IMG/VR virus record: IMGVR_UViG_3300020005_000005
Coordinates: 1-60,836 of that record
DNA from: a virus
Lineage: Duplodnaviria; Caudoviricetes
Direction: 5' to 3' (one strand)
Length of the DNA: 60,836 nucleotides
The notes under the pieces are model-generated. The model saw nothing but the letters and a program-made list of their open reading frames with translations, was not told the origin of the DNA and did not search any database. The position numbers and the translations under genes are program-made. Below are positions 117-30,252 of this stretch, in pieces; position 1 is the first letter of the stretch; each line of letters starts with the position of its first letter.

Positions 117-575
117 GACTGCAGTACTATGCTATACCTAGTTAACATAATGATAATTATTTAACAAACAAAACCTTTAAATTAGGCTATATACTCATGT
201 TTGTATTGCTGACATGGTATAACAGGAGTCTATCTGTCAAGGTGGCATAAGATAGGACCGGCACAAAAAGAATGCTTTTTAGGCAGGGGAAACAAGAGGC
301 GGGGGGTGTTTGACTTGACGCCGGGCAGCCGGGCGGGGGGGAGGGGAACCCCCAAACATTTCACACAAAAAGGGACCCCCTCTACATTTTTCCCAAAAAA
401 ACCGGGGTAAAAAGTGCCCTGAGGCTCGATTTACAGACAAAATATTAATAATGGTATACTTGAGTTAATATTAACAGTCGAGCATTGGGGTCTCGCGGGG
501 TGTGCTTATCCCCCCTATACTAAAGTTGATTACTTTATTGATCAAAAACGACTTTAGTATCATCCCTTTGGTGGA

Positions 576-604
576 CAACCTTTGGTATCCTTTTTGCGTT
601 ATAA
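576..604 (+). promoter_or_regulatory. ECF-sigma-type promoter motif, copy 1
   Basis: CAAC(576-579)-N17-CGTTATAA(597-604); ATG at 610. Confidence 0.65.
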
Positions 605-609
605 GGGGT

Positions 610-1353
610 ATGGACTACAAAACAATAAAATACCCGGACGGGCAGATATCTGTAGAGATTACTGATTTCGACGGACCAATCAAAAAGAGGATTAATAGTT
701 ATGAGGATCTGATAGGGATAGTGTCTGCAGGCGAGGTGCTCCGCCACCAGGGTAAATCGTGCGATCTATTTATTCCATGCCTTTTGGGGCAGCGGAGTGA
801 TAGGCGCTTTGGTCAAGATCAATCCTTTGATCTTAAAGTGATAGCGGGGCTGATCAACTCGGGCGGTTTTGGCAATGTGTCAATACTGGATCCACACAGC
901 GATGTTGCCTTAGCCCTGATAGACAGATCAACCAAGGTATCTTCTTACCAGTATGTCGCCCAGGCGTACGCAGAGGAGGGGTCTCCTACCTTAGTGTCTC
1001 CGGACGCGGGGGCCTATAAGAAGGTTTTTGAGTACGGTCAAAAGCTGGGAGCGCCAGTAGTGGCGGCAGTCAAGCACCGTGACAAGGATGGCAAGATCGA
1101 CCTTTCTTTTATTGGGGACGTTGCAGGGCAAAAATGCCTGATAGTGGATGACCTGGCTGACGGGGGATACACCTTTGTTTTGCTTGCAGAAGCGCTTCGC
1201 AGACAGGGTGCCATCAGAGTCGCGCTCTACGTCACGCACGCCTACTTTAATAAGGGTTTTGGTTTATTAGCCCCCCTTATAGACAACATTTATTGCACCA
1301 ATTCCGTTAAAGATATCGTAGACCCACTTGTAACACAATACAATGTCATATAG
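610..1353 (+). CDS. prs: Ribose-phosphate pyrophosphokinase-like protein (probable Adps of NARP1)
   Basis: YPDGQ N-terminus, RSDRRF, LDPHS, SPDAGA and PRPP-binding loop LIVDDLADGGYT; ATG 610 preferred over GTG 502. Confidence 0.85.
   Translation: MDYKTIKYPDGQISVEITDFDGPIKKRINSYEDLIGIVSAGEVLRHQGKSCDLFIPCLLGQRSDRRFGQDQSFDLKVIAGLINSGGFGNVSILDPHSDVALALIDRSTKVSSYQYVAQAYAEEGSPTLVSPDAGAYKKVFEYGQKLGAPVVAAVKHRDKDGKIDLSFIGDVAGQKCLIVDDLADGGYTFVLLAEALRRQGAIRVALYVTHAYFNKGFGLLAPLIDNIYCTNSVKDIVDPLVTQYNVI
1284..1312 (+). promoter_or_regulatory. ECF-sigma-type promoter motif, copy 2 (inside the end of the PRS-like gene)
   Basis: CAAC(1284-1287)-N17-CGTTAAAG, about 30 nt upstream of the macrodomain ATG. Confidence 0.45.
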
Positions 1354-1822
1354 AGAAGTACAAGGAAATCTAATCACCCTTGCCCAGGAGGGGGAATTTG
1401 ACCTCATCGCACACGGCTGTAATTGCTTTTGTACCATGGGGGCGGGTCTAGCCCCCCAGATGGCAAAGGCCTTTGGATGTGACAAGTTCCCCCTGGAGCA
1501 TGTTGATTATAGAGGTGATATCAACAAATTAGGGCAGATCGACGTCGGCGGCTTCAGATATTTGGGTAATGACTTTTTTGTAGTTAACTGTTATTCACAA
1601 TATGGTTTTGGGGCAAACCACGAGGAAGGCAAAGTAGCACCACTCGACTATGAGGCCCTGATCCTATGCCTGCGCAAAATAGGTCATATTTTTAAGGGTA
1701 AACACATTGGACTGCCCCAGATAGGGTGTCACCTTGCTGGGGGGGATTGGGAGGTGGTAAAAGAGATAATTAAGAAGGAATTGTCAAAATGTGATATTAC
1801 TATTGTAATTTATAAACCATGA
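1343..1822 (+). CDS. Macrodomain protein (ADP-ribose binding/hydrolase)
   Basis: GNL, IAHGCNC, MGAGLA and LPQIGCHLAGGDW motifs typical of phage macrodomains. Confidence 0.9.
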   Translation: MSYREVQGNLITLAQEGEFDLIAHGCNCFCTMGAGLAPQMAKAFGCDKFPLEHVDYRGDINKLGQIDVGGFRYLGNDFFVVNCYSQYGFGANHEEGKVAPLDYEALILCLRKIGHIFKGKHIGLPQIGCHLAGGDWEVVKEIIKKELSKCDITIVIYKP

Positions 1823-3261
1823 GAATAAATCCTTTACTTTTAACAGACTACTACAAGACGGAGCACTACAAGATGTACCCCCTCGGTACTTCTATGATCT
1901 ATTCCAACCTGACTCCACGCAAGAGTAGGCTACCAGGGGTCGATGCTGTTGTCGTCTTTGGTGTTCAATATTTTATAAAAGAGTACCTTATTAAAAGGTT
2001 TGATGAGGACTTCTTTGATAGGTCCTGGGGGGATGTGCTGGAAGAATACCGCTTTGCTGTCAACACTGATACAGCCCACATCGAGGCACTACACCGTTTG
2101 GGGTACTTACCTATCAGGATAAAAAGTCTTGCTGAGGGGTCTTTATGCCCTATAAGGGTACCTATGTTAACTATCGTAAATACCCTTCCTGATTTCTTCT
2201 GGCTGACTAATTACTTGGAAACATTGATGAGCAATGTCTTGTGGCAACCTATTACTTCGGCCACCATTGCTTACGAGTACAAGAAATTACTAAATAGGTG
2301 GGCACGCATGACAGGGGGAGATGAAAGTTTTGTGCCCTGGCAGGGGCACGATTTTAGCTTTAGGGGTATGTCTTCTCCTGAGTCAGGCATGACATCCGCT
2401 ATGGGCCACCTCTTGTCATTCACCGGTACTGACACCATACCCGCTATATACGGCCTGCGCGATTACTATAATGGACAGGGTCTGATTGGCGCCTCTGTGC
2501 CTGCAACAGAGCACAGCGTTATGTGCATGGGTGGCGCTTACTCAGAGCAGGAGACTTTTGAAAGATTGCTCGACCTTTATCCTACCGGAATCCTTTCAGT
2601 CGTCTCAGACACGTGGGACCTGTGGCACGTCTTGGGTACTATCTTACCTAATTCAAAAGACAAAATAATGGCCCGAGACGGTAAACTGGTGATCAGGCCC
2701 GACTCAGGGGATCCTGCTGATATTCTGTGCGGACAATCAAAAGATAAATGGACAAGGAGTATTAAAGACATTCCCAAACAAAAGGGGGTTATAGAGTTGT
2801 TATGGAATATCTTCGGGGGCACTGTCAACGCCAAGGGATACAAAGTACTTGATCCGCACATTGGGGCCATCTACGGCGACTCAATTACTTTGGAGAGAGC
2901 AGAGGACATACTGTCCCGCCTGGCAGTCAAAGGCTTTGCCTCTACCAACGTGGTGTTAGGTATTGGTTCCTATACCTATCAGTATAATACGCGCGACACC
3001 CTGGGCTTCGCCGTCAAGGCGACGTACGGAGAAGTAGATGGTGTAGGCAGAGAGATCTTTAAAGACCCAGTCACTGACGACGGTACAAAGAAAAGTGCCA
3101 AGGGGCTTCTTGTCGTTCACAAGGGCGACGGCGGTTATGTGCTCAAAGATCAGCAAACAGTTGACGGAGAAAGAAGGGGAGAACTAGACACCGTCTTTGT
3201 TGATGGTATGATAATCAAAGAGGAATACTTGGATAATATAAGAACAAGATTAAATTTTTAA
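1819..3261 (+). CDS. nadV: Nicotinamide phosphoribosyltransferase-like protein (probable Namat of NARP1)
   Basis: TDYYKTEH, HDFSFRG, SVPATEHSVM, SVVSDTWD, VIRPDSGDP, IYGDSIT, KDPVTDDGTKKSAKG. Confidence 0.95.
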   Translation: MRINPLLLTDYYKTEHYKMYPLGTSMIYSNLTPRKSRLPGVDAVVVFGVQYFIKEYLIKRFDEDFFDRSWGDVLEEYRFAVNTDTAHIEALHRLGYLPIRIKSLAEGSLCPIRVPMLTIVNTLPDFFWLTNYLETLMSNVLWQPITSATIAYEYKKLLNRWARMTGGDESFVPWQGHDFSFRGMSSPESGMTSAMGHLLSFTGTDTIPAIYGLRDYYNGQGLIGASVPATEHSVMCMGGAYSEQETFERLLDLYPTGILSVVSDTWDLWHVLGTILPNSKDKIMARDGKLVIRPDSGDPADILCGQSKDKWTRSIKDIPKQKGVIELLWNIFGGTVNAKGYKVLDPHIGAIYGDSITLERAEDILSRLAVKGFASTNVVLGIGSYTYQYNTRDTLGFAVKATYGEVDGVGREIFKDPVTDDGTKKSAKGLLVVHKGDGGYVLKDQQTVDGERRGELDTVFVDGMIIKEEYLDNIRTRLNF

Positions 3262-3487: not shown

Positions 3488-3692
3488 ACAACTCATCTCT
3501 CTAGAGGTACACAACGCGGCCCGTAGTGCTAGTTACAAATTTGACAACAGTCCGGAGCCTAACGGGATTGAATGCCCACAGTGTGGTCACGAGTTGGTAG
3601 ACTCCAACCCTATGGTAGTACTAACTAGCATGCCGGCGCAGAAGAACGTACACTGCCTGACGTGTCGCTACAGGGGTTATAGGTACCTATGA
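3480..3692 (+). CDS. Zinc-ribbon protein
   Basis: CPQC and CLTC pairs. Confidence 0.65.
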   Translation: MSKQLISLEVHNAARSASYKFDNSPEPNGIECPQCGHELVDSNPMVVLTSMPAQKNVHCLTCRYRGYRYL

Positions 3693-3820
3693 CAGAGGAT
3701 CCTATCATCTTTGCTGTAAGAACGCGCTTTTACTATAAGGGCCCCCGGATAGAAACGCTGACTAAGGAGCAATTGCTCGACCTCCTGCGTAAAATCCTCA
3801 AAAAGGAGATTTTTAAATAA
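3689..3820 (+). CDS. Small hypothetical protein (43 aa, absent from the ORF track)
   Basis: ATGA overlap with the upstream stop; MTEDPIIFAVRTRF...KKEIFK; fills the gap exactly. Confidence 0.5.
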   Translation: MTEDPIIFAVRTRFYYKGPRIETLTKEQLLDLLRKILKKEIFK

Positions 3821-3821
3821 T

Positions 3822-3836
3822 AGGCACAATTTTTGT
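3822..3836 (+). promoter_or_regulatory. Sigma54-type -24/-12 motif
   Basis: AGGCACAATTTTTGT; GG at 3823 and G at 3835 have canonical spacing; ATG at 3849. Confidence 0.65.
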
Positions 3837-3848
3837 GGTATAAATCTT

Positions 3849-4505
3849 ATGATTAAACCAATACTAATTTGTGCCTTTTTTGTGCTTTTTGCACAGGGCA
3901 TGCCGGAAGCGGAGAATCAAACGAAGACCACCTACCTTAAAGAGGTGGAGATTGTTGGCTATCCGCTCGATGTGGAGATCTACCGGGTTCTTACTCAGGG
4001 TAAAGACTCTGTTTGGGCGCTTGATGGGTCTGACAGTCTCCTGATCGATGTACCGGCCCTAGATCCGGCCATGGCGCGACTCATCGTTGCACAAGCCCGA
4101 CACGAGACGGGTGACTTTGTCTCCCCATTATTTACTAATCACAACAATGTTTACGGAATGCAACATCCGGGACGCGGCAAACTAACCACCTCCCTAGGTC
4201 CACTTGCGACAGCAGAAGGAAGGCCCAACAAGTACGCATCCTATAGTACCGTTGAGGCATCGGTACTTGATTTAATGCTCTGGCTACAGTATCACAACAC
4301 ACCCAAGATTACCACGGCCGATGCGTATTGTAAGTATTTAAAACAACATCGTTACTTTGAAGCACCTTTAGTCGTTTACCAAAACAGTCTCAAACACTAT
4401 TTAGCATGTCCATCACCCAGTTTAAAAACCTTTATGACCAAAAACCCTTTTACACATCAATCGACAAAGTCCTTGAGACTATCAAAAACGGTGGCAAGCA
4501 ATTAG
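3849..4505 (+). CDS. GH73 glucosaminidase-family peptidoglycan hydrolase with signal peptide
   Basis: AQARHETG catalytic motif, NNVYGM, YASYSTVEASV; hydrophobic N-terminus ending AQG. Confidence 0.8.
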   Translation: MIKPILICAFFVLFAQGMPEAENQTKTTYLKEVEIVGYPLDVEIYRVLTQGKDSVWALDGSDSLLIDVPALDPAMARLIVAQARHETGDFVSPLFTNHNNVYGMQHPGRGKLTTSLGPLATAEGRPNKYASYSTVEASVLDLMLWLQYHNTPKITTADAYCKYLKQHRYFEAPLVVYQNSLKHYLACPSPSLKTFMTKNPFTHQSTKSLRLSKTVASN

Positions 4506-6118
4506 ACCTGATCAAACAAATCCGGGCGTCTAGGGACAAGGAGGAACGCAATGAGTTAAAGAAGCAACTTTCCGTTATTTGTTTTGGCGGTAAGTTTAGT
4601 GAACGCAAGGCCGCCGCTTTGGTGGAGTACTCCCGTCTGGTGGTGCTTGACTTTGATGACGCTTCTATAGTGACTAAAAGGCAAGAACTCTTGCTCCTTC
4701 CATACGTCTATGCTGTCTTTGTCTCGCCCTCCGGCGAGGGACTCAAGGCACTCATCCGGGTGAGTTCCGACAACCACTTAGGTCACTGGTCGGCCCTGCA
4801 CAAAGAGATTGATGGAGTTGATAAGAGTGGCAAGGACGTCTGTCGCGCCTGCTTCATGTCTTACGATCCCTCACTGTATGTCAATGCACACAGCGATATT
4901 TATACCAAAGTTGTCGAATCGGCTTATACTGACGAACAAAAACTAGAGAAGTTAAAAGTATGGTTAGCCAACAAGGGCGAACAGTTTAAGACGGGCAACC
5001 GCAATAATTTTTTAGCCAAGCTGGCGGGAGCCTGCAATCGCTTTGGTCTGACGGAGGCCTACGTCCTATCTGTTTTTGAAAGGGACTACGTAAAGGGATC
5101 TGACTTTAGCCTCAACGAGGCGCAGACCGTCGTTAGGTCTATCTACAAGAACTACTCGGAGTTCCACGCGACCGCCTCCTTCGACGAATCCTTTGGTGAG
5201 GCTAGGGCGGCTGAGATACTCTCCTCAGAGTTAACCACCAATGACGTCATTTATCTTAAAGACGTCGAGGCTGATCTGATCAACGATTATGAGCACGGCA
5301 CTCAAGGCGCACCCACCACCTATTTTCCTTCTATCGATCCTATCTTTAGGCCCCTACCCGGTGACCTTAATGTGTTGTCCGGCATAGGCAACCACGGTAA
5401 ATCGGCCATTAAAAAACAAATGGATCTTGTCCGCTCAGTCAAGGACGGTCACAAGCACTGTTACTTTAGCCCCGAGGAGGTCCCGCCTCTGTTCTGGTAC
5501 AGGGAACTCATTCGTTCTTATATAGGCAAACCACTGGAGCCTGGCTCGCGCGACAGGATGACAATGACCGAATATAAGCGGGGTATGGATTTTGTGAAGG
5601 AACACTTTGTTTTTGTCTACCCGCCCAGTCTACCTACACCCGATTACATACTAGAACGCTTTTCTGAGGTGATTATCAAGCACGGTATGAACTCGGTTAC
5701 ATTAGACCCATGGAACCAATTGCTTCACATCATGGACAAAAGGGACGATATCTACCTAGGAGAAGTCCTTTCCAAATTTGAGCGTTTCGCCCAGCAACAC
5801 GGAATCTATTTTACAGTGATATGCCACCCGAATAGGACGCGAAAAAAGAAGGACAAACAGGGGAATGAAGATGCTAATTATGATTGTCCGGACGTTTATG
5901 ACTTAAATGGCGGCCCTACCTGGAACGCGCGATCAACCAATATTTGTGTCTACCATCGCCCGTTTTGGGGTTCGGACAAAAACGACCCTACCGCCGAATT
6001 CCATTCAAAAAAAATTAAGAGACAAATGATTAGCGGCATTCCTGGCGCGTGTTCACTTGATTATAACCGCAAAACAGGTCGTTTTTATGATGGTGGTTAC
6101 TCTCCATTGGACAACTAA
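4406..6118 (+). CDS. Primase-helicase (BT4734/VirE-N-like primase, PriCT-like linker, SF4 helicase)
   Basis: VLDFD, FVSPSGEGLK, DKSGKDVCRACFMSYDP; GNRNNFL; Walker A SGIGNHGKS; LDPWN; ICHP. Confidence 0.85.
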   Translation: MSITQFKNLYDQKPFYTSIDKVLETIKNGGKQLDLIKQIRASRDKEERNELKKQLSVICFGGKFSERKAAALVEYSRLVVLDFDDASIVTKRQELLLLPYVYAVFVSPSGEGLKALIRVSSDNHLGHWSALHKEIDGVDKSGKDVCRACFMSYDPSLYVNAHSDIYTKVVESAYTDEQKLEKLKVWLANKGEQFKTGNRNNFLAKLAGACNRFGLTEAYVLSVFERDYVKGSDFSLNEAQTVVRSIYKNYSEFHATASFDESFGEARAAEILSSELTTNDVIYLKDVEADLINDYEHGTQGAPTTYFPSIDPIFRPLPGDLNVLSGIGNHGKSAIKKQMDLVRSVKDGHKHCYFSPEEVPPLFWYRELIRSYIGKPLEPGSRDRMTMTEYKRGMDFVKEHFVFVYPPSLPTPDYILERFSEVIIKHGMNSVTLDPWNQLLHIMDKRDDIYLGEVLSKFERFAQQHGIYFTVICHPNRTRKKKDKQGNEDANYDCPDVYDLNGGPTWNARSTNICVYHRPFWGSDKNDPTAEFHSKKIKRQMISGIPGACSLDYNRKTGRFYDGGYSPLDN

Positions 6119-8827: not shown

Positions 8828-9484
8828 ATGGCTCTTCCTGTTATCTATATAATAATTTCTCCAACTAACCGTATTTATGTCGGTCAGACTCGTGATTTTG
8901 AAAAACGAATAAGTTATTATAAAAGATCTAAATGTAAGGGACAAACACTATTGCACGCGTCTTTGAGAAAATACGGCTGGGAACAGCACACGTGTGAGGT
9001 AGTTGTCAAAACCAGGGCAGAAATTCCTCAATGGGAACTAACTCTTTTAGAGCAAACAATCATGGATCATTACCGCTCGGAGGGTTATGAATTGATGAAT
9101 CTAAAGGAGGCCGGTTCTTGGGGTAAACACTCGGAAGAAACAAAATTAAAAATGAGCGTTTCTCGCAAGGGTACCTGCCTCGGAACAGATCATCATAATT
9201 TTGGTAAACACCCGTCCAGAGAAACTCTTTTAAAAATGAGCCTCATAATGAGAGGTAAGCACAAAGGATCAAAAAGTCCGTCAGCCGTGCCTGTGTGGCA
9301 ATGTGAAAAAGACGGCACAAAAATAAAAAGATGGGAAGCGATGGCAGAGGCAGCAGAAGGCTTAAATATTAAATACACAAACATATCCAGATGTTGTAGG
9401 GGAACCAGACTTACTGCGTACGGATTTGTGTGGAAATATACAGAACCAAAATTACCCATAGTAGCGAAACACACTACTAGGTAA
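8828..9484 (+). mobile_element. Free-standing GIY-YIG homing endonuclease (NUMOD3 + NUMOD1-like)
   Basis: VIYIIISP...IYVGQT; GKHSEETKLKMS; ISRCCRG...TAYGFVWKY. Confidence 0.85.
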
Positions 9485-9670: not shown

Positions 9671-10015
9671 ATGTGCGTAGTTTCAAATACAGGGGACTAC
9701 TGGGGGCAGAGATTACATCCTTGGTCACCTTATACACCACCACTTCCTTACATTCCACCCGCTCAGATGCCCGATATAACCAAAATCGTCATTAATCCTA
9801 CCGGGCCTACCAAGGATGACTTTGACAATTTAAAAAAAGAGGTACAGATCATGAAGGAGCAATTGGCCCGTGCCAAGGAGTACGACAAAGCCAACGGAGA
9901 ACCAGACTGTGAGATAGAAGACAAAATGGCATTTTTAAGAGAAGTGGCCAAATTGGTTGGTATTGACTTGGATGAAGTACTTAAGAAAGACTCCGCAAAC
10001 GCCTCCTTATCCTAG
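9671..10015 (+). CDS. Hypothetical phage protein
   Basis: MCVVS...KEYDKANGEPDCE; Pro-rich linker plus coiled coil. Confidence 0.7.
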   Translation: MCVVSNTGDYWGQRLHPWSPYTPPLPYIPPAQMPDITKIVINPTGPTKDDFDNLKKEVQIMKEQLARAKEYDKANGEPDCEIEDKMAFLREVAKLVGIDLDEVLKKDSANASLS

Positions 10016-10024
10016 AGAGTTTTT

Positions 10025-10039
10025 TGGCACGGTTTTTGA
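10025..10039 (+). promoter_or_regulatory. Sigma54-type -24/-12 motif upstream of the tRNA
   Basis: TGGCACGGTTTTTGA; predicted +1 near 10051, adjacent to the tRNA 5' end. Confidence 0.75.
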
Positions 10040-10051
10040 TCATATAATAAC

Positions 10052-10129
10052 CGCGCGGTAAGGAAGTGGTCTATCCGCCCAGGCTCATAACCTCGGAATC
10101 GTTGGTTCGAATCCAACCCGACGCAACCA
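10052..10129 (+). tRNA. tRNA-Met(CAT), initiator-like, with structural irregularities
   Basis: Anticodon loop CTCATAA (CAT 10086-10088), T arm GTTGG-TTCGAAT-CCAAC, encoded CCA, C1:A72 mismatch. Confidence 0.85.
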
Positions 10130-10142
10130 GACATTTAAAAAA

Positions 10143-10672
10143 GGCACGGCAGAACAAGATCTCACAACTTAATCCTCGGATTGATCTCAACGCACTGCCG
10201 TGCTGGCTTCCCACGAGAAGCCAAGATTGATTTCGAGGATTATTTTTTGCCCTTTGGATAGGGAAGGATCTCTCCTGTACTGTTACCAGAAACAGCCTCT
10301 AAACCCTGGCACAACCCGATACAAGGGCGCCGTGTCGTCCGCGTACAACAAACCGTACGCCGACCACGTTAAAGAGTTTAATTGAGGAAATGGGCCTTCT
10401 ACTACTTGCTACCCGCCTCGGCCCATACGGTACACCTCACGATAAGATAAAGGGTACTCAAGATAGCAATCCTCTATAGGGGGTAGGGGGTTGCTACTTG
10501 CTTATCCACGGCGCCCGTAGCCCCTCGCTTCGCTTCGTGGCGACGTGTAGAGCACCGCGGGGACGTGATCAGCCCCCGTTTCCTTCTCTAAGAGATAGAG
10601 CCACACGGTGACAAGCAAACAGGTATTCCCCTCAAAAAATAGGGGAAGGGGAAATGAAGGGGGCACGTCCCG
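10143..10672 (+). ncRNA. Candidate large structured non-coding RNA
   Basis: No credible ORF; more than ten complementary segments including 8-10 bp perfect long-range helices and a pseudoknot (see findings). Confidence 0.55.
10346..10374 (+). promoter_or_regulatory. ECF-sigma-type motif, copy 4 (inside the structured region)
   Basis: CAAC(10346-10349)-N17-CGTTAAAG. Confidence 0.35.
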
Positions 10673-10740
10673 ACAGGATGCTTGATTTTAATAAAAAAAC
10701 GGTCGCGGAGGTCCGCCATTTTCAAACTAAAGTCTTAGTT

Positions 10741-10875
10741 ATGAGCAACCTTCATCTCGACAGGCCGGATTTAATGCTTACTTATCTAGTTGCTTCCGTC
10801 CTCGGATCTATAAGCATGCACTACGTAGCAATGCGGTTTTTCGAGAAAAAGGGCACTAATCGTGTAGTATCATAG
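10741..10875 (+). CDS. Small membrane protein or gene remnant
   Basis: LMLTYLVASVLGSISMHYVAMRFFEKK hydrophobic helix; start uncertain. Confidence 0.35.
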   Translation: MSNLHLDRPDLMLTYLVASVLGSISMHYVAMRFFEKKGTNRVVS

Positions 10876-10882
10876 GTCCGCA

Positions 10883-10910
10883 CAACCTTTATAGCCCAAA
10901 TACGTTAAAT
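10883..10910 (+). promoter_or_regulatory. ECF-sigma-type promoter motif, copy 5
   Basis: CAAC(10883-10886)-N16-CGTTAAAT, intergenic, upstream of ATG 10936. Confidence 0.65.
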
Positions 10911-10935
10911 AGGATAGGGTCAAAACAACAAAAAT

Positions 10936-11205
10936 ATGCCAAAAACAGTCACCTTTAAAGTTACACGGGAGGATCTGAAAGGTTATTATAGTGATAGTCA
11001 AGATTGTCCCATTGCTTTAGCTGCCAAAAGATATTTTAAAAAACCAGTATGGGTGACTGCCTGGTACCTAAGCATACCTGTGTGGGGTATGCGATATAAA
11101 TTGAATAGAAGTGCCTCTAGCAAAGCATACGCCAGGGGAAATAATTCTTTATGGGGTAAGTTAATGGGCGGCTTCGCAGTAGTTTTAACTGAACTGCCGG
11201 AATAG
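10936..11205 (+). CDS. Hypothetical protein
   Basis: 89-aa ORF with DCPIALAAKR. Confidence 0.6.
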   Translation: MPKTVTFKVTREDLKGYYSDSQDCPIALAAKRYFKKPVWVTAWYLSIPVWGMRYKLNRSASSKAYARGNNSLWGKLMGGFAVVLTELPE

Positions 11206-11388
11206 GTGGAAAGAGGATCTGTTATTGACAACCAGGAGCAAAAAATCGATGGAAGGATCAAGGTGTGGGTAACAGTCAAGAAAAAGGACGGGACAAAAGA
11301 GCGCCTTTTTTATTATTGGGACGAGGCCAGTAAGCAGCAGAAATACTACGATAACCTGTATAAAAATCACCCCCCGTGCCCACTATGA
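11206..11388 (+). CDS. Hypothetical protein
   Basis: 60-aa ORF abutting both neighbours. Confidence 0.5.
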   Translation: MERGSVIDNQEQKIDGRIKVWVTVKKKDGTKERLFYYWDEASKQQKYYDNLYKNHPPCPL

Positions 11389-12215
11389 AATATTATGTCT
11401 ATCGTCATATTCGCCCAGACAAGAACGAGCCCCTTTACATAGGCTTGGCTAAGAAAGCGAAGAAGTTTAATACTATTAAAAACGAATACGCACGAGCCTA
11501 CGCTCACAGCAAAGATCATAGAACTGAATTTTGGCATAACATATTTAACCTGTGTAATAAGAAAATTGAAGTTGACATTCTTTATGAATCCGATGATTGG
11601 AAAGAAATCAATGAAAAGGAAATAGAGTTTATAAAACTCTACGGGCGTGCTGATTTGGGTCTGGGCCCCCTAGTAAATTTCACCAACGGCGGCGAGGGTA
11701 ATCATGGAACAATAGTCACGGAGGAAACAAGACGCAAAAGAAGCGAGTCCATGAAGGGTAAAAATACCGGCCCAATAACGGAGGAGCATAGACAAAACTT
11801 AATCAAGTCCCATCTAGGATATAGCCCCACGGAGGAACATCGTAAGAATTTAAGTATAGCGGGTAAAAAACGCTATGAAGATCCAGTAGCGCGTCTTGTA
11901 ATGAGTCAACGAATGATTGGTCGCGTGTTTACCGAAGAATGGAAACAAAACGGTAGTAAGGCTAGGCTAAAATTTATGGCGGAAAATCCTGGCCATTGGG
12001 AAAGCATAAGATTAATCAATGATAGGGCTGTTGTTAAATTAACACTGGCTGGTGAATTTGTTCAAGAATATAAATCACTACGTGAAGCCGCCAAAGAAAA
12101 CGGAATGAAAAGCAGTTCTGGAATTGGTGCGGTTGTAAGAAAAGTAGGCAATAACAAAACGGCGTACGGATTTAGGTGGGCATTTAAAGAGAACTTTGTT
12201 CTATGCCCCAATTGA
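11385..12215 (+). mobile_element. Free-standing GIY-YIG homing endonuclease (second subfamily; NUMOD3 repeats + NUMOD1-like)
   Basis: YYVYRHIRPDKNEPLYIG; LVNFTNGGEG; TEETRRKRSESMKG and TEEHR repeats; TAYGFRW. Confidence 0.85.
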
Positions 12216-12871
12216 AACCACTGGTAGACGCCGACCTGCTTGTATATAGATGTTGCGCTGGCAACAGGGGTCATAACGATTTCATTCAAATGGTGGAGGC
12301 GGCCGATGATTTTATCCAATATATAGAGGGAATGTTTGAGGAGAAAGCCCTACTGTTCCTGACAGGGAAGAACAACTTTAGATATGCGGTAGCAACGCTA
12401 GTACCTTATAAAAACAATCGTAAAGATAAACCGCGCCCCCGTCACTTCCAATCAATGAGAGAGTACTTAGTGAACTTTCACAATGCTCGAATAGTGGACG
12501 GAATAGAGGCAGATGACGCTCTTGCGACGCTCCACAAGGAGGACACAGTACTTGTAACTTATGACAAAGATTTACGACAGTGCAAAGGGTGGTATTTTAA
12601 CACGCTTAAAAACGAACTTATTTATATCTCCCAGATCGAGGCAGACTACAACCTGTACTATCAAATGCTTGTGGGAGATTCCGCGGATGCCGTGCCAGGT
12701 ATAAGAGGAATAGGCGAAAAAAAGGCACCGCCGATTTTAATAGATAAGAATAAGCAAGAAATGGAGGAGGCCGTGATGAAAGAATACAAAAGACAGTACG
12801 GCGACAATGCTAAGAAATATTTTGATGAGGTTTATACACTACTTTACTTAAAAAGAGATTGCCAATTATGA
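12203..12871 (+). CDS. 5'-3' exonuclease (T7 gp6/flap endonuclease-like)
   Basis: VDADLLVY, NFRY, YKNNR, IEADDA, DKDLRQ, LVGDSADAVPGIRGIGEKKA. Confidence 0.9.
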   Translation: MPQLKPLVDADLLVYRCCAGNRGHNDFIQMVEAADDFIQYIEGMFEEKALLFLTGKNNFRYAVATLVPYKNNRKDKPRPRHFQSMREYLVNFHNARIVDGIEADDALATLHKEDTVLVTYDKDLRQCKGWYFNTLKNELIYISQIEADYNLYYQMLVGDSADAVPGIRGIGEKKAPPILIDKNKQEMEEAVMKEYKRQYGDNAKKYFDEVYTLLYLKRDCQL

Positions 12872-13083
12872 ACATAAACGATTTTATTGACAAATGGTGC
12901 TTAGGCCAGTATAGAGAACTGGCAACGCAGGACTTGCTCACGGTGTCTGACACCGAGTACAAGCAGGTGGGACTGGGCGAGATTTTTGAGATTGATGGGA
13001 AGAAGTACCTAATAAGGACGCCGGAAACTGCGACAGAAGACATAAACATACACGGTCAAGTAATTTACCCAGTATTCACATGA
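12868..13083 (+). CDS. Hypothetical protein
   Basis: ATGA-type overlaps with both neighbours. Confidence 0.55.
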   Translation: MNINDFIDKWCLGQYRELATQDLLTVSDTEYKQVGLGEIFEIDGKKYLIRTPETATEDINIHGQVIYPVFT

Positions 13084-13805
13084 AAATTTTACTTAACTAT
13101 AAAAGTTCAGATCTCATTTTCTTCGATATTGAAACAGCGAGGGTTGTGGAAAAATTAATACCAGGGACTCCATTGCACTCAGCGTGGCAGTACAAAGCGA
13201 GGTACCAGAATGAGATGAAGGAAAAACTATCACGCGACGGATCAGACCCCGAAGTGGCGCTGGAGGAATTCTTTGAAGAAAAAAGCCCACTCTACGCGCC
13301 ATTCGCTCGAATTGCTTGTATAGTGGTGGGTAGAATAGACGGAGAGAATCTCAAGGTTAAGACTTACGCTGGAGAGGAGGATCAACTTCTCACCAACTTC
13401 ATGACGGACCTGTCTATGTTTACCACCGCCAGGCCAGGCGCGGCCCTGTGTGGTTTCAATAATATAGGCTTTGATCAGCCAATGATTACCAAGAGATCGA
13501 TGGTCAATAATGTGCAACTCCATCCATTGCTTGACACGGCACACCTAAAACCGTGGGAAATTAATGCACTGGATCTCAGCACATTGTGGAAAGGCGCTTC
13601 CTTTTATCCCGATTCCCTCGTAGCCGTGGCCACAGCACTCGGCTTACCATCGCCCAAAACGGGCATGGACGGCGCCAAGGTTTCTGAAGCCTTTTACGCA
13701 GGTAAAATAGATGAAATTGTGGAGTACTGTAAGGCCGATGTCTTAACAACAGCCAATATTTATAGGCGCTTTTCTCAAAAAAGTTTATTAAAAATGACAG
13801 AATAG
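13080..13805 (+). CDS. DEDD 3'-5' exonuclease (PolB-exonuclease-related)
   Basis: FFDIET (ExoI), GFNNIGFDQP (ExoII), EYCKADVLTT (ExoIII). Confidence 0.85.
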   Translation: MKILLNYKSSDLIFFDIETARVVEKLIPGTPLHSAWQYKARYQNEMKEKLSRDGSDPEVALEEFFEEKSPLYAPFARIACIVVGRIDGENLKVKTYAGEEDQLLTNFMTDLSMFTTARPGAALCGFNNIGFDQPMITKRSMVNNVQLHPLLDTAHLKPWEINALDLSTLWKGASFYPDSLVAVATALGLPSPKTGMDGAKVSEAFYAGKIDEIVEYCKADVLTTANIYRRFSQKSLLKMTE

Positions 13806-20347: not shown

Positions 20348-22021
20348 ATGGCTATAACGATGACTTCGTTCGGATCTAACGGACGTCTAGGAAATCAACT
20401 TTTTCAGTACGCCTCCATGATAGGTCTAGCCAAGAAGCACAAAACCGAACTCGTTTTACCAGAATGGAAATATGCACAATACTTCGAAGGAACTTTTCCC
20501 AGCGGTGGAGTTCTTGAAAATGCAAGAGCAGTCCGAGAGCCCGTCTTCAATTACATTCCAGACTGGCCCTATATTGCTGAGAACGATCAGGTCGACATTA
20601 AAGGTTATCTCCAATCAGAGAAATACTGGGAAGATGCGATAGAAGAAGTCAGAACGGCGCTAACGTTCAAGAAAGAATTTAAGGAACAGGTATGGAACAA
20701 CTTCATGATCAATTATGTTGATGAAGATTTTAAGGCCAATCCTAAGAAGACATTAGCTATAAGTGTTCGTCGTGGTGATTACGTTGGAAATCCGCATTAC
20801 GCACAACTTTTGGTCACCTATTATATCCGCGCTATGTTTGATAATTTTCCAGACTGGCGCGATAGAAATATCATCCTGTTCAGTGACGACATACCTTGGT
20901 GTCGCGTGCACTTCGATTGTCTTCCTAATACCTACTTTAGCGAAAATAACAGTGACATAGAGGATCTTTGTTTGATGTCTCAGTGTGATGACTTTATAAT
21001 TTCTAACAGCACTTTCGGGTGGTGGGGTGCTTATCTTGGGCAGCAACCAATAGTCGTAGATATCGCACAAATACCGGAGGGCAGTACTATAGAAGGATTT
21101 ATAGCTTTAGCAATTTTTAATTGCACAACTACAAAAGTAATTCGTCCAGTTCATCACTTCGCAGGCAAACTTCTCAAGCAAAACAATATTAAAGATTTCT
21201 ATCCTGCACGCTGGATTGCCTACGACCACAAAGATGAGATTGGTCAGAACAAGAGGCTGGATCTTAAAGACTGTTGTTTCACTATACCGGTCAGGGCTGA
21301 CCACGAAGACCGCGTAGAAAACCTGAAATTAATAATCAGATATTTGCTTGAGAACTTGGACACAGACATCATGGTCCAGGAGCAAGGAGGAACTACATTC
21401 AACTTTGTCGGCGATGATTGGCGAGTTAAGTATTTGACGTTTGGTGGGCACGACTTCCACAGGACGCGGATGCTAAATTACATGGCTGCGCACACAAACA
21501 AGCCTTATATTTTCAATTGGGACGCGGATGTTTTAATTACACCGCTTCAACTTTGGCTGACGGCCGAGAAGTTACGGGCCGGCGCAGACATGGTGTATCC
21601 TTATGATGGGCAGTTCGCCAGGGCGCCAAGAAACACTTGGTTTGTTAAACTCAGGGACCACGACGGAGATGTGGGCATCTTTGGAGACACCAAGTTGAAC
21701 GGTATGAACAGGGGTGATGCTGTGAGCCTGGGTGGTGCTGTGGCTTGGAACAAGAAGAAGTTTTTTGAACTGGGCGGAGAAAATGAGCAGTTTGTAGCCT
21801 ATTGTCCTGAGGATATGGAGCGTTATGAGAGGGCGGTCAAGTTGGGAGCCATAATAGACCGTGTGCCTGGTCCAATGTACCACATTAATCATTTTGTTGG
21901 TCCAACAAGCAATATGTCCAATCCTCACTATCCGGCCGGTAAAAGGGAATTGGAGCGCATTCGGGCGCTGCCGGCAGACATATTATATACAGAAGTTAAA
22001 ACTTGGCCGAAAGGACTATAA
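20348..22021 (+). CDS. GT11 alpha-1,2-fucosyltransferase-like domain fused to a GT2/GT7-like domain
   Basis: GRLGNQLFQYA, SVRRGDY, FSDD, NSTFGWWGAYL; then FTIPV, NWDADV, GGENEQF..YCPED. Confidence 0.85.
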   Translation: MAITMTSFGSNGRLGNQLFQYASMIGLAKKHKTELVLPEWKYAQYFEGTFPSGGVLENARAVREPVFNYIPDWPYIAENDQVDIKGYLQSEKYWEDAIEEVRTALTFKKEFKEQVWNNFMINYVDEDFKANPKKTLAISVRRGDYVGNPHYAQLLVTYYIRAMFDNFPDWRDRNIILFSDDIPWCRVHFDCLPNTYFSENNSDIEDLCLMSQCDDFIISNSTFGWWGAYLGQQPIVVDIAQIPEGSTIEGFIALAIFNCTTTKVIRPVHHFAGKLLKQNNIKDFYPARWIAYDHKDEIGQNKRLDLKDCCFTIPVRADHEDRVENLKLIIRYLLENLDTDIMVQEQGGTTFNFVGDDWRVKYLTFGGHDFHRTRMLNYMAAHTNKPYIFNWDADVLITPLQLWLTAEKLRAGADMVYPYDGQFARAPRNTWFVKLRDHDGDVGIFGDTKLNGMNRGDAVSLGGAVAWNKKKFFELGGENEQFVAYCPEDMERYERAVKLGAIIDRVPGPMYHINHFVGPTSNMSNPHYPAGKRELERIRALPADILYTEVKTWPKGL

Positions 22022-22425: not shown

Positions 22426-22461
22426 AGAAGCCCCCTACTTATGTAGCTGGGGCTTCTTTTG
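22426..22461 (+). terminator. Intrinsic terminator
   Basis: AGAAGCCCC...GGGGCTTCT followed by a T tract. Confidence 0.75.
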
Positions 22462-22494
22462 TTGATGTTCACAAAACCTGAACAACCCTTTAAA

Positions 22495-23385
22495 ATGAAC
22501 AAAAAACTTATTTATACGGTCCTCCTCGGAGGATACGACGACCTAAAAGAGCCCCGGGAAGTGACGCCGGGATGGGACTACGTAGTTTTTACGGACAATA
22601 GAGAACTCAAGTCTGATAACTGGTTTGTTTCGTGGGGCGGTTATTATAATACTTGTCCAGAAACTGATATTAAGAAGCAGTCCAGATGGTTTAAATTGAA
22701 GCCATTGGGGGGATACGATACAACCCTGTATGTGGACGCCTCTTACCGTCCACTGGGCAACCTCGATGAATTCATAGAGGGCAAAACAGAGGGCGTCTGG
22801 ATGACGCGACATCCGCAAAGAAATTGTGTGTATAGGGAAGCCCAGACAGTCCGCGAAAAGGGTCTAGACAACGAAAATACAGTACTTGAGCAAGTAGGTC
22901 GCTATAGAGACGAGGGCCTACCCGACAGAGGAGGGCTATGGAGAGGGGGAGTAATCGTTCGAAATAAGGGCTGCGAGGCTTTTAATGAAAAATGGTGGGA
23001 GGAAGTTTCACGGGGAACATATAGGGACCAGATTTCGGCACCCTACGCCGCCCGGGCGACCGGCACCAAGATACACGACATTCCGCACGGCCAGGTGGAA
23101 CAGTACTTTGCGCCCAGTCTCCACAAACCACACAAAGTGGGAGGGGGAGTAGTAAGGGTGTCAGATCCCGCGGAGATTTCTACATACAAAGACTGCTGGA
23201 TCTGCCTGGGAGACTTCCCGAAAGCAGAACAGGCCATAGAGGAATTTCCAGAAGTGCATCTAATAACCAATCAAAGTGGCGCTCTTTTGTTTCCCAGGTG
23301 GTTGTACAATTACTTGCAGTTTCCTGAACAGATGATCAAACATGTCCAGATTTATGGTGGTTCATATGTATTATACTTCAAATGA
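22495..23385 (+). CDS. Glycosyltransferase, DUF616 (TOD1/MUCI70)-like
   Basis: IYTVLLGGYDDLKEP, YVVFTDN, LYVDAS, HPQRNCVYREA, RDQISAPY. Confidence 0.8.
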   Translation: MNKKLIYTVLLGGYDDLKEPREVTPGWDYVVFTDNRELKSDNWFVSWGGYYNTCPETDIKKQSRWFKLKPLGGYDTTLYVDASYRPLGNLDEFIEGKTEGVWMTRHPQRNCVYREAQTVREKGLDNENTVLEQVGRYRDEGLPDRGGLWRGGVIVRNKGCEAFNEKWWEEVSRGTYRDQISAPYAARATGTKIHDIPHGQVEQYFAPSLHKPHKVGGGVVRVSDPAEISTYKDCWICLGDFPKAEQAIEEFPEVHLITNQSGALLFPRWLYNYLQFPEQMIKHVQIYGGSYVLYFK

Positions 23386-23684
23386 CCTTTAAAAATCTCT
23401 CCGATTTAGAACTTGAGTTAATCGTCTGGGCAGACGTCATAGAGTACGACGAGACGTGGGCCAGTCTGGACGAGATACAGGAGTGGCTCAAAGACGGAGC
23501 ACACTTCATAGTAGAGCAGCCCGGATACGTAATTGCTGAAGATAACGATTGTATAGTTCTGGTTTCCTGCTTCGTAGAATCTGCCGAAGTATTTAGTAAT
23601 GTTCACAAAATACCTAAAGGTCTGATTAAAAGGAGAGCAAAGCTAATTGAGCATGATCAAAGTCCCGGCCTTCATCCAGAGTGA
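23382..23684 (+). CDS. Hypothetical phage protein
   Basis: IVWAD...GYVIAED...IPKGLI pattern. Confidence 0.6.
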   Translation: MTFKNLSDLELELIVWADVIEYDETWASLDEIQEWLKDGAHFIVEQPGYVIAEDNDCIVLVSCFVESAEVFSNVHKIPKGLIKRRAKLIEHDQSPGLHPE

Positions 23685-24162
23685 TAGTTCTCGTTGTGGA
23701 CCTACCGTCATCAAAAGTATTCTGGCCTACTACGACATAGAGGCTTCGGAGGATGAGATTTGCCGATTATGCGGTCACACTTTTGAATATGGTTGCGATG
23801 ACGCTGGCATGAAGGCTGCTCTGGAGCATTACGGACTCCGCGTGGCTATCTACAACAACTCCAACTTCCAGCAAATAGCCTACTGGATCAAGAGAGAAAT
23901 ACCGGTGATTGTCGATTGGTTCACCGGCGGAGTTCAGCCAGGTCCGGCCGATCTACCTAACGGGCACTCAAGCATTGTGGTAGGACTCGACGAGGACAAG
24001 ATACATTTGCTAGATCCTGAAGATGGGAATATCAGACATGTTGTGCGAGAAGATTTTCTCCGTTGTTGGTTTGATTTTAAAGGTCTTGACGCGCCTTGCA
24101 TAGATTCTTGGGATCAGTTGATATTACGTCAAATCATTGTTCCGTACAAGGTTAATTTTTAA
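23653..24162 (+). CDS. C39-family cysteine peptidase
   Basis: QSDSSRCGP (Gln/Cys), GHSSIVVG (His), LLDP (Asp). Confidence 0.85.
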   Translation: MIKVPAFIQSDSSRCGPTVIKSILAYYDIEASEDEICRLCGHTFEYGCDDAGMKAALEHYGLRVAIYNNSNFQQIAYWIKREIPVIVDWFTGGVQPGPADLPNGHSSIVVGLDEDKIHLLDPEDGNIRHVVREDFLRCWFDFKGLDAPCIDSWDQLILRQIIVPYKVNF

Positions 24163-24166
24163 AAAT

Positions 24167-30128: not shown

Positions 30129-30252
30129 AATAGATTACTTTTTGTAGTCGTTTAAACCTCATAAAAAGGGGTTTATCTCGTGCTCAAAGGTAATGTCGGA
30201 AGGGGCAAACGTCCTCTTTCTCAACCTATTACTTACCTAAACTTCTCATAAA

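What the first reader, a model, noticed from the sequence alone, without database searches (positions are those of the whole stretch)
10143..10672. Candidate ~530-nt ornate, pseudoknotted non-coding RNA directly behind the tRNA
Seen: domain 1, GCACGGCAG 10144-52 pairs with 10195-203; its loop segment 10170-87 pairs with 10224-42 (9 perfect bp plus a G-U extension), giving a pseudoknot or switch, with a hairpin at 10204-23 between. Domain 2, a perfect 10-bp helix 10325-34/10507-16 closes a junction with three arms: 10341-60; 10383-439 with inner 10390-96/10420-26; 10441-506 with a 13-bp inner helix 10464-76/10484-96 containing two G-U pairs. Domain 3, 10560-67/10664-71 and 10572-77/10659-64 enclose hairpin 10626-47. 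G-U pairs favour a + strand RNA. Established: large phage RNAs such as GOLLD and ROOL often lie next to tRNAs. Inference: a late RNA co-transcribed from the sigma54-type site at 10025, possibly a new class; I could not match it to tmRNA, RNase P or an intron by eye.
Basis: partly seen in the sequence, partly recalled or inferred. Interest (0 to 1): 0.85.

Follow-up and report, generated by a model that had tools for sequence, protein, structure and literature searches.

The report
Orphan structured RNA candidate behind phage tRNA
A 640-base gene-free stretch of an uncultivated soil phage, just behind a damaged-looking tRNA gene, folds unusually well and is probably a non-coding RNA, but it has no known relatives and no expression data, so it remains a candidate.

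Summary
The interval lies in the longest ORF-free gap of the window away from the contig start, 10016-10653. It is G+C-enriched, 0.50-0.56 against 0.448 overall. It folds better than shuffles: z -4.92 on the + strand against -2.75 on the - strand. In a scan of the whole + strand it ranks 2nd of 603 600-nt stretches.

A -24/-12-type motif, TGGCACN5TTG, ends 15 nt before the tRNA-like gene. It has 7 exact copies, all on the + strand, against 0.40 expected.

No Rfam family other than tRNA matches. No frame is opened by recoding one stop codon. No protein family fits the ORF pieces.

No homologue turned up in phage genomes, IMG/VR, JGI metagenomes or GTDB genomes. The phage itself has no close relatives there, so covariation could not be tested. 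No RNA run was listed.

Verdict: a credible orphan candidate for a tRNA-linked structured phage RNA. It resembles GOLLD, ROOL and T4 RNAC/RNAD in context only. Rivals are a cis leader, a relic spacer and a DNA element.

The parts
10025..10038 (+). A -24/-12-type (sigma-54-like) promoter motif, TGGCACGGTTTTTG. The inferred start site is about 10051, two bases before the tRNA-like gene.
   Evidence: It is one of 7 exact copies of TGGCACN5TTG, all on the + strand, against 0.40 expected and 0 of 100 shuffles with 7; context. The start site is my inference from the recalled -24/-12 geometry. The abstract of PMC2831329, seen in the listing, states that conserved positions lie around -24 and -12.
10053..10125 (+). 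tRNA-like element with a CAU anticodon. It has a 6-bp acceptor stem with a bulged A and mismatches in the D and anticodon stems, and it is followed by ACCA.
   Evidence: Rfam tRNA scores 37.9 bits against a cut-off of 29. ARAGORN finds none. Its only blastn hit is a tRNA-Met of Sinorhizobium phage Phosso, 80.6% over 67 nt. Aligned with the tRNAs of phage X1.
10130..10142 (+). A/U-rich single-stranded linker (GACAUUUAAAAAA), a possible processing site between the tRNA-like element and domain 1.
   Evidence: Sequence; mostly unpaired in the folds. Its role in processing is inference.
10143..10252 (+). Domain 1. It holds helix A (10144-52/10195-203), hairpin B (10204-23) and a long stem (10170-87/10224-42) that is followed at once by U6 (10243-48). 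It could be a crossing pseudoknot, a switch, or a branched terminator-like hairpin.
   Evidence: z -4.92, 0 of 200 shuffles as good. The terminator scan lists hairpin B only.
10253..10324 (+). Weakly structured connector. Its last 13 nt (10312-24, CAACCCGATACAA) repeat the 3' end of the tRNA-like element (10114-26) at 11 of 13 positions.
   Evidence: -14.4 kcal/mol; repeat D3. In one related contig, two T>C changes at 10269 and 10278 fall on bases unpaired in the MFE fold.
10325..10516 (+). Domain 2. A perfect 10-bp closing helix (10325-34/10507-16) encloses a multi-stem junction. Its arms are 10337-64, 10368-82, 10383-439 (inner stem 10390-96/10420-26 with a 23-nt loop) and 10452-507 (14-bp hairpin 10464-77/10483-96).
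   Evidence: -77.4 kcal/mol, z -4.76, 0 of 200 shuffles as good; ensemble tighter than 99 of 100 shuffles.
10517..10550 (+). Short connector with a small hairpin (10526-28/10545-47 and 10530-34/10539-43).
   Evidence: -13.1 kcal/mol for 10517-10560.
10551..10682 (+). Domain 3. Stacked helices 10560-66/10665-71, 10572-77/10659-64 and 10578-84/10649-55 enclose hairpins 10585-95 and 10626-47.
   Evidence: -52.0 kcal/mol, z -3.66, 1 of 200 shuffles as good. Its ensemble is not unusually tight: 18 of 100 shuffles are as tight.
10683..10720 (+). A/U-rich tail (AUUUUAAUAAAAAAAC), then a 4-bp G+C hairpin (10705-08/10713-16), then CAUUUUC. This is at best a weak terminator.
   Evidence: Sequence and fold. 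The terminator scan does not list it.
10742..10875 (+). Possible small ORF of 44 aa, from the internal ATG of ORF call 10654-10875, with a hydrophobic stretch. It would be the first candidate coding sequence after the RNA region.
   Evidence: ORF list. No PHROG or Pfam match at E of 0.1 or better. That it is coding is unproven.

Best explanation
The interval is the body of a non-coding RNA locus that sits where related phages keep tRNA genes.

Proposed mechanism (inferred, not shown):
1. Transcription starts at about 10051 from the -24/-12-type promoter motif at 10025-38 and runs along the + strand.
2. It first makes a tRNA-like element (10053-10125) and then three independently folding domains: 10143-10252, 10325-10516 and 10551-10682.
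3. Host tRNA-processing enzymes cut at the tRNA-like element, with RNase P at its 5' end and endonuclease cuts in the A/U-rich linkers at 10130-42 and 10683-99.
4. This releases a stable structured RNA of about 540 nt, or its domains separately, which acts in trans during infection.

It would work like the stable RNAs made from phage tRNA regions (T4 RNAC/RNAD, GOLLD, ROOL), whose roles are themselves unknown.

What is shown: the absence of coding capacity, the excess of structure, the G+C enrichment and the repeated motif. What is inferred: transcription, processing, stability and action in trans.
For: 1. No coding capacity.
- 10016-10653 is the longest gap free of + strand ORFs of 70 aa or more, apart from the contig start (6 gaps of 150 nt or more listed).
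- All six frames carry 4 to 13 stops of mixed kinds, so recoding one stop codon opens none.
- 0 of 7 ORF pieces inside the gap match a PHROG or Pfam family at E of 0.1 or better.

2. Structure.
- z -4.92 for 571 nt, with 0 of 100 shuffles as good.
- Rank 2 of 603 among 600-nt stretches of the + strand.
- Domain 2's ensemble is tighter than 99 of 100 shuffles.
- All three domains have stronger z on the + strand than on the - strand: -4.92, -4.76, -3.66 against -2.70, -2.96, -3.25.

3. Composition. G+C is 0.50-0.56 across 10200-10699, against 0.448 for the window.

4. Promoter motif.
- There are 7 exact copies, all on the + strand, against 0.40 expected.
- At the other sites the next start codon follows within about 27-85 nt. 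Here the next thing is the tRNA-like gene, and the nearest candidate ORF start is about 700 nt away.

5. Context.
- Every ORF of 90 aa or more that looks like a gene is on the + strand.
- In Xanthomonas phage X1, the homologue of the upstream protein (44% identity) is followed by tRNA-Val, tRNA-Leu, a small CDS and tRNA-Met. The slot is therefore a tRNA island elsewhere.
- GOLLD and ROOL are described as often lying near tRNAs in phages, and one GOLLD lies downstream of a Met-tRNA (passages of PMC5737381 and bioRxiv 10.1101/2024.12.08.627333).
- T4 makes RNAC and RNAD from its tRNA region (passage of PMC3014915).

6. Weak hint of conservation. In low-depth contigs of one soil run, a piece over the coding stretch 9677-9826 differs at 13 of 150 bases, while a piece over 10569-10719 differs at 1 of 151. 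The two pieces may come from different strains.
Against: - No homologue was found anywhere, so there is no covariation. The phage also has no close relatives in the collections, so this silence says little either way.
- A coding stretch, 29601-30200, scores slightly better in the same folding scan. This statistic alone can therefore be reached without an RNA gene.
- Both strands reach the same MFE, and DNA parameters give z -5.10. The fold does not prove an RNA product.
- Domain 1 ends in a stem followed by U6 (10243-48). If that terminates transcription, domains 2 and 3 would be made only by read-through.
- No convincing terminator closes the unit, so the region may simply be the 5' part of a longer mRNA.
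- The tRNA-like element is degenerate, which fits a decaying locus as well as it fits a processing handle.
Confidence: 0.45

Rival explanations
1. Cis-acting leader. The region is the long structured 5' part of the mRNA for the genes that follow: the small ORF 10742-10875, ORF 10936-11205, the GIY-YIG endonuclease 11376-12215 and the 5'-3' exonuclease 12203-12871. Domain 1 would act as an attenuator, with its long stem plus U6 terminating transcription and helix A as the alternative fold. Domains 2 and 3 would protect the 5' end or slow decay.
For: - No further copy of the promoter motif occurs between 10038 and 15275.
- No canonical terminator follows domain 3, so transcripts from 10025 should run into these genes.
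- Domain 1 has two nested folds close in energy, -38.5 and -33.4 kcal/mol, and the lower one ends directly in U6.
- Structured RNAs that limit translation of free-standing homing endonuclease genes are known in T4-type phages (passage of PMC3014915).
Against: - About 690 nt between start site and first ORF is far longer than at the other six motif sites, which have about 27-85 nt.
- The terminator-like stem is A/U-rich at its base and encloses a 36-nt branched loop, which is atypical for an intrinsic terminator. The scan did not list it.
- No riboswitch or leader family matches.
- Other, unrecognised promoters may serve the downstream genes.
Confidence: 0.2
2. Relic spacer. The stretch is non-functional DNA left in a tRNA-island slot. 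It would be decayed tRNA genes, or DNA dragged in by the flanking GIY-YIG homing endonucleases from a more G+C-rich phage. Its helices would be leftovers or chance.
For: - The only recognisable tRNA is itself degenerate.
- The slot holds three tRNAs in phage X1.
- Homing endonuclease genes flank the locus at 8828-9484 and 11376-12215.
- A 13-nt near-copy of the tRNA 3' end lies at 10312-24.
- No homologue was found in any collection.
- A coding stretch reaches a similar folding score.
Against: - No second tRNA-like match appears, even at E up to 10, in 605 or 1101 nt.
- Decay should erase long-range helices, not leave a perfect 10-bp helix closing a 192-nt domain whose ensemble is tighter than 99 of 100 shuffles.
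- This phage packs its genes tightly, with the other internal gaps at 219 nt or less. That argues against 600 nt of junk.
- The promoter motif sits directly in front of the locus.
Confidence: 0.22
3. DNA-level element. The stretch would be a replication origin, a single-strand initiation signal or a recombination or cleavage hotspot within the replication module. The structure would form in single-stranded DNA and not in RNA.
For: - Folding with DNA parameters is as unusual as with RNA parameters, z -5.10.
- The locus lies among replication genes: a primase-like protein at 4406-6118, a 5'-3' exonuclease at 12203-12871 and a 3'-5' exonuclease at 13080-13805.
Against: - The stretch is G+C-rich, not A+T-rich.
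- It has no iterons or tandem repeats, only two- or three-copy repeats of 9-24 nt.
- Cumulative GC skew shows no turn here.
- The promoter motif and the tRNA-like gene point to transcription.
Confidence: 0.08
4. Hidden or broken protein-coding gene. The stretch would be read with another genetic code or a frameshift, or it would be a recent pseudogene.
For: Short ORFs of 37-61 aa exist in the interval.
Against: - Stops of all three kinds occur in every frame.
- No PHROG or Pfam match at E of 0.1 or better for 7 ORF pieces.
- The neighbouring genes read normally with table 11.
Confidence: 0.03

Closest known systems
GOLLD and ROOL RNAs (large ornate RNAs of phages and prophages)
   Same: - Size class of about 500-800 nt.
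- Multi-domain fold with multi-stem junctions.
- Phage origin.
- Position beside tRNA genes. One studied GOLLD lies downstream of a Met-tRNA (passages of PMC5737381 and bioRxiv 10.1101/2024.12.08.627333).
   Different: - No match to either Rfam model, even at E up to 10.
- The structure here rests on one sequence and energy minimisation, not on covariation.
- Nothing is known about multimer or cage formation.
Phage T4 RNAC and RNAD (small stable RNAs of the T4 tRNA region)
   Same: - Non-coding RNAs of unknown role, made from a phage tRNA region (passage of PMC3014915).
- That region also holds a GIY-YIG-type homing endonuclease gene, segB, cited in the same paper. That SegB is GIY-YIG is recalled.
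   Different: - By recall, the T4 RNAs are much shorter (about 120-140 nt) and lie among functional tRNAs.
- No sequence comparison was made here.
Intrinsic terminator or attenuator downstream of a tRNA gene
   Same: Domain 1 offers a stable stem (10170-87/10224-42) followed directly by U6, and an alternative helix A.
   Different: - The stem encloses a 36-nt branched loop and has an A/U-rich base.
- The scan lists only the inner hairpin 10204-23.
- About 430 nt of further structured sequence follows it.
tRNA-like processing handles (tRNA punctuation of transcripts)
   Same: A tRNA-shaped element at the 5' end of a longer non-coding transcript could be cut by tRNA-processing enzymes to set the end of the downstream RNA. 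This is inference from general knowledge.
   Different: No cleavage data exist. The element may simply be a weak or dead tRNA-Met gene.

Membership tests
GOLLD RNA | Match to the family's covariance model (conserved 3' domain). | tested here: not met
   There is no GOLLD match at the gathering score in the whole window. There is none at E up to 10 in 9900-11000 or in 10126-10730.
GOLLD RNA / ROOL RNA | Typical context: phage or prophage, near tRNA genes. | tested here: met
   The window is a virus record. A tRNA-like gene lies directly upstream. The context is described in PMC5737381 and bioRxiv 10.1101/2024.12.08.627333 (passages). Context alone does not define membership.
ROOL RNA | Match to the family's covariance model (six multistem junctions, three pseudoknots). 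| tested here: not met
   No ROOL match appears.
tmRNA | A tRNA-like domain formed by the 5' and 3' ends, plus a tag reading frame. | tested here: not met
   ARAGORN finds no tmRNA in the window. No Rfam tmRNA family matches at E up to 10.
RNase P RNA | Match to bacterial type A/B or archaeal models (conserved P4 core). | tested here: not met
   No match appears. The string GAGGAAA at 10384-90 resembles, from recall, the start of a conserved RNase P region. The rest does not follow.
Group I or group II intron | Conserved catalytic core (model match) and an interrupted host gene whose exons join in frame. | tested here: not met
   No intron model matches at E up to 10. The upstream protein is complete: homologues align over residues 1-106 to 1-114 of 114. 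The tRNA-like element is contiguous.
tRNA gene array (decayed) | Further cloverleaf matches within the interval. | tested here: not met
   Only one tRNA match (10053-10125) appears at E up to 10. No hairpin loop carries a T-loop-like sequence, as read.
Intrinsic terminator (domain 1) | A G+C-rich hairpin with a short loop, followed at once by a U run. | tested here: inconclusive
   U6 at 10243-48 directly follows the long stem. However, the stem is branched and A/U-rich at its base, and the scan lists only hairpin 10204-23.
Sigma-54-type (-24/-12) promoter in front of the locus | TGGCAC-N5-TTGC-like elements at fixed spacing, recurring before transcription units. | tested here: inconclusive
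   There are 7 exact TGGCACN5TTG copies, all on the + strand, against 0.40 expected. The base after TTG is A, T or C (C at 15275 only), where the recalled consensus has C. No sigma-54, activator or transcription data are available.

The most novel reading that the evidence does not exclude
The interval encodes a new class of large, multi-domain, tRNA-linked phage RNA. It would be unrelated in sequence and fold to GOLLD and ROOL, made from a sigma-54-type phage promoter, and set free by tRNA-processing enzymes in an uncultivated soil phage lineage that has no close relatives in current collections.
Probability: 0.2. Interest if true: 0.7.

Novelty: new variant of a known kind. Interest (0 to 1): 0.42.

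Why it matters
Large structured RNAs beside phage tRNA genes (GOLLD, ROOL) have recently been shown to build RNA-only cages, yet their function is unknown (abstract and passages of bioRxiv 10.1101/2024.12.08.627333).

A further, unrelated example in a very different phage would suggest that 'tRNA island plus big RNA' is a general phage strategy and not a quirk of two families. It would also give another molecule on which to test what such RNAs do.

The tight link to a -24/-12-type promoter motif would offer a handle on when the RNA is made. As things stand, this is one sequence without expression data or covariation. Its value is as a lead for targeted searches in soil viromes, not as an established RNA.

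Tried and rejected
**Homologue searches (all empty)**
- blastn 'distant' of 9900-11000 against 50,697 phage records gave only a 67-nt tRNA-Met hit.
- Loci around homologues of the upstream protein: 8 in IMG/VR and 6 in JGI/ENA metagenomes, all at 48-58% full-length identity. None shows similar DNA by blastn or nhmmer. ARAGORN finds no tRNA in 5 of them, and 8 of them have no Rfam match. Two of the metagenome loci (L012, L015) look like the same contigs as IMG/VR loci.
- Genome contigs with the same protein: none.
- The exonuclease and the portal protein found no relatives in IMG/VR. The capsid protein found none among phage records.
- Exact 17-22-nt patterns from the interval and from the tRNA-like 3' end gave 0, 2, 8 and 0 places in IMG/VR. 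All hits match only the pattern itself.
- The gapped pattern of the two strands of the 10-bp helix was a poor choice. It is G+C-rich and palindromic, and it hit more than 120 places in high-G+C genomes and 8 in IMG/VR. None shows further similarity.
- Single-sequence covariance models of domain 2 (R1) and domain 3 (R2) found only themselves in the window plus 14 loci. They found nothing in 4 whole related records; L014's record was not held.
- R1 gave nothing in G004. In 151 genomes of G004's phylum it gave one 17.9-bit partial hit. Its per-genome E is 0.025, which is chance over 151 genomes. That this phylum is the host's is only my guess.

**Expression**
- No RNA holder was listed among the 6 soil DNA runs.
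- The laid contigs are short and near-identical. They leave parts of the interval uncovered.

**Other readings considered and rejected**
- Weak Rfam rows (CRISPR-DR31 at 16.4 bits and two snoRNA families, all with E above 1) are taken as chance.
- Chance-level repeats were noted and not built upon. These are the anticodon-loop complement at 10738-46, the CTACTTGCT copies and 10651-60/10749-58.
- No reverse transcriptase, RNA ligase or tRNA repair enzyme was seen among the 30 ORFs scanned with Pfam outside the gap. A retron-like reading was therefore dropped.

- One search used a mistyped regular expression and returned one false site. One search corrected it.
- Supplementary files of the papers were not opened. 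The alignments of GOLLD and ROOL in them might allow a finer structural comparison than the Rfam models did.
Full report
**What the window is.** The window is a whole IMG/VR virus record of 60,836 bp. It is linear, and CheckV estimates it at 44% complete. All ORFs that look like genes lie on the + strand. The finding sits in a replication-type module:
- a primase-like protein at 4406-6118;
- a GIY-YIG homing endonuclease at 8828-9484;
- a small conserved protein of unknown function at 9671-10015 (phrog_10166);
- the interval in question;
- two small ORFs, then a second GIY-YIG endonuclease at 11376-12215;
- a 5'-3' exonuclease at 12203-12871 and a 3'-5' exonuclease at 13080-13805.

**Checking the observation.**
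- Six are perfect, including the 9-bp helix 10144-52/10195-203 and the 10-bp helix 10325-34/10507-16.
- Only the outer parts of two arms are weak (5 of 7 and 7 of 10 pairs).
- The minimum-energy fold of 10126-10725 recovers nearly all of them and splits the stretch into three domains: 10143-10252, 10325-10516 and 10551-10682.

**Is it more than chance?**
- The 571-nt stretch 10130-10700 folds at -200.5 kcal/mol, z -4.92, with 0 of 100 dinucleotide shuffles as good.
- The single domains give z -4.92, -4.76 and -3.66. I set their borders after seeing the fold, which flatters them.
- Domain 2's ensemble is tighter than 99 of 100 shuffles. Domain 3's is not unusual, with 18 of 100 shuffles as tight.
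- As a background I scanned the whole + strand in 607 windows of 200 nt with 25 shuffles each. The mean z is -0.45 and the sd is 1.21.
- The three adjacent windows over the interval sum to -9.47. That ranks 2nd of 603 (mean -1.34, sd 2.35).
- First place goes to 29601-30200, inside the ORF before the capsid gene. This statistic can therefore be matched by coding sequence.

The structural signal is real and rare in this genome, but it is not proof of an RNA gene.

**Coding capacity.**
- 10016-10653 is the longest stretch without a + strand ORF of 70 aa or more, apart from the contig start. The other internal gaps are 219 nt or shorter.
- Each of the six frames carries 4 to 13 stops of mixed kinds, so no single recoding opens a frame.
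- Seven ORF pieces of 37-73 aa match no PHROG or Pfam family at E of 0.1 or better.
- G+C rises to 0.50-0.56 against 0.448 for the window, as is usual for structured RNA genes in moderately A+T-rich genomes.

**The 'tRNA'.**
- Rfam finds one tRNA match at 10053-10125, at 37.9 bits against a cut-off of 29, with a CAU anticodon.
- Its acceptor stem has six pairs and a bulged A. The D and anticodon stems each have a mismatch.
- ARAGORN calls no tRNA in the window.
- No second tRNA-like match appears in the interval, even at E up to 10.

**Promoter motif.**
- TGGCACN5TTG occurs 7 times exactly, all on the + strand, against 0.40 expected. None of 100 shuffles reaches 7.
- Six copies lie between ORF calls. 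The seventh, at 15275, lies 27 nt after a stop codon and inside the first bases of the longest ORF call there.
- The motif has the form of a -24/-12 (sigma-54-type) promoter. The consensus is recalled; the abstract of PMC2831329, seen in a search listing, states the -24/-12 positions.
- With that geometry, the copy at 10025-38 would start transcription at about 10051, two bases before the tRNA-like element.
- At the other sites a start codon follows within about 27-85 nt. Here the first candidate ORF start is about 700 nt away.

This is the best internal argument that the locus is an RNA gene unit. It remains inference.

**Known families.** Apart from tRNA, no Rfam family reaches its gathering score in the window. 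None gives a meaningful match at E up to 10 in 1101 nt or 605 nt, on either strand. This covers GOLLD, ROOL, OLE, tmRNA, RNase P, group I and II introns, riboswitches and small ribozymes, as far as their models reach.

**Relatives.**
- I found no homologue of the interval. The full list of searches is under Tried and rejected.
- The phage has no close relatives in the collections. The exonuclease and portal find nothing in IMG/VR, and the capsid protein finds nothing among 50,697 phage records.
- Only the small upstream protein has relatives, at 44-59% identity, and their neighbourhoods differ.
- One neighbourhood is telling. In Xanthomonas phage X1 the homologue is followed by tRNA-Val, tRNA-Leu, a small CDS and tRNA-Met. 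The slot is therefore a tRNA island in at least one other phage.
- Six soil DNA runs hold the stretch or parts of it, and none is an RNA run.
- The laid contigs are near-identical. Two T>C changes, at 10269 and 10278, fall on bases unpaired in the fold.
- In one run, a piece over coding sequence differs at 13 of 150 bases while a piece over domain 3 differs at 1 of 151. The two pieces may belong to different strains, so this is only a hint.

**Strand and molecule.**
Both strands reach -200.5 kcal/mol, with 18 of 173 pairs G-U on the + strand and 12 of 176 on the - strand.
- The + strand is favoured by z-score overall (-4.92 against -2.75) and in each domain. Gene orientation and the promoter motif also favour it.
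- DNA parameters give z -5.10, so a single-stranded DNA structure is not excluded by folding.

**Domain 1.**
- Nested folds that keep one or the other differ by about 5 kcal/mol, -38.5 against -33.4.
- The long stem is followed at once by U6 (10243-48).
- Domain 1 could therefore be a pseudoknot, a switch, or a branched terminator or attenuator for the tRNA-like gene. The tools here cannot decide.

**Interpretation.** I rate the explanations as follows.

| Explanation | Confidence |
|---|---|
| tRNA-linked structured non-coding RNA locus | 0.45 |
| Long cis-acting leader with an attenuator for the downstream genes | 0.20 |
| Relic spacer of a decayed or endonuclease-shuffled tRNA island | 0.22 |
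| DNA-level element | 0.08 |
| Hidden or broken coding sequence | 0.03 |

The leading explanation works like the stable RNAs of phage tRNA regions, T4 RNAC/RNAD (passage of PMC3014915) and GOLLD and ROOL (passages). The tRNA-like element and the A/U-rich linkers would act as processing sites.

**Novelty and score.** The interval is not a member of any family tested. In kind it resembles the large RNAs found beside phage tRNAs. If real, it would be a new class within that kind. The boldest reading still open is a new class of large tRNA-linked phage RNA, at a probability of about 0.2.

Noticed in passing
window 9491, 10025, 15275, 22040, 28842, 28868, 45591 (+ strand): A -24/-12-type motif, TGGCACN5TTG (mostly TGGCACGNTTTTTG), occurs 7 times exactly, all on the + strand before transcription units, against 0.40 expected. 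One pair is a tandem before the gene ahead of the capsid gene. A phage that relies on sigma-54-type promoters would be unusual, and that deserves its own look.
   Followed up: partly
window 502-1353 and 1819-3261: A PRPP-synthetase-like protein (Pribosyl_synth, Pribosyltran) and a NAPRTase/NAMPT-family protein lie close together. They look like a phage NAD salvage pair. From recall, such pairs counter NAD-depleting host defences.
   Followed up: no
window 8828-9484, 11376-12215, 24137-24781: Three free-standing GIY-YIG homing endonuclease genes are present. Two of them bracket the tRNA-like/RNA locus.
   Followed up: partly
window 29601-30200 (inside ORF 28920-30128): This stretch has the strongest local folding excess on the + strand: the summed z over three windows is -9.73, and window 29601-29800 scores -4.36. 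It lies within the ORF just upstream of the SU10-type capsid gene 30253-31599. It may be a structured mRNA segment.
   Followed up: no
window 10114-10126 and 10312-10324: A 13-nt near-repeat (11 of 13) of the 3' end of the tRNA-like element lies directly before the closing helix of domain 2. It could be chance, or the scar of an insertion at a tRNA end.
   Followed up: no
window 10083-10091 and 10738-10746: The anticodon loop of the tRNA-like element (GCTCATAAC) is the perfect complement of GTTATGAGC, which holds the ATG of the small ORF 10742-10875. By my arithmetic, about two such 9-nt matches are expected by chance in 1.1 kb.
   Followed up: no
L026 (Xanthomonas phage X1, OQ427096.1) 3501-4502: The homologue of the upstream small protein (phrog_10166) is followed by tRNA-Val, tRNA-Leu, a small CDS and tRNA-Met. 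This protein may be a marker for tRNA-island borders in some large phages.
   Followed up: partly
window 20348-22021, 22459-23385, 23647-24162: Two glycosyltransferase-like proteins (a GT11 fusion and TOD1_MUCI70) and a C39-type peptidase lie between the replication and head modules.
   Followed up: no
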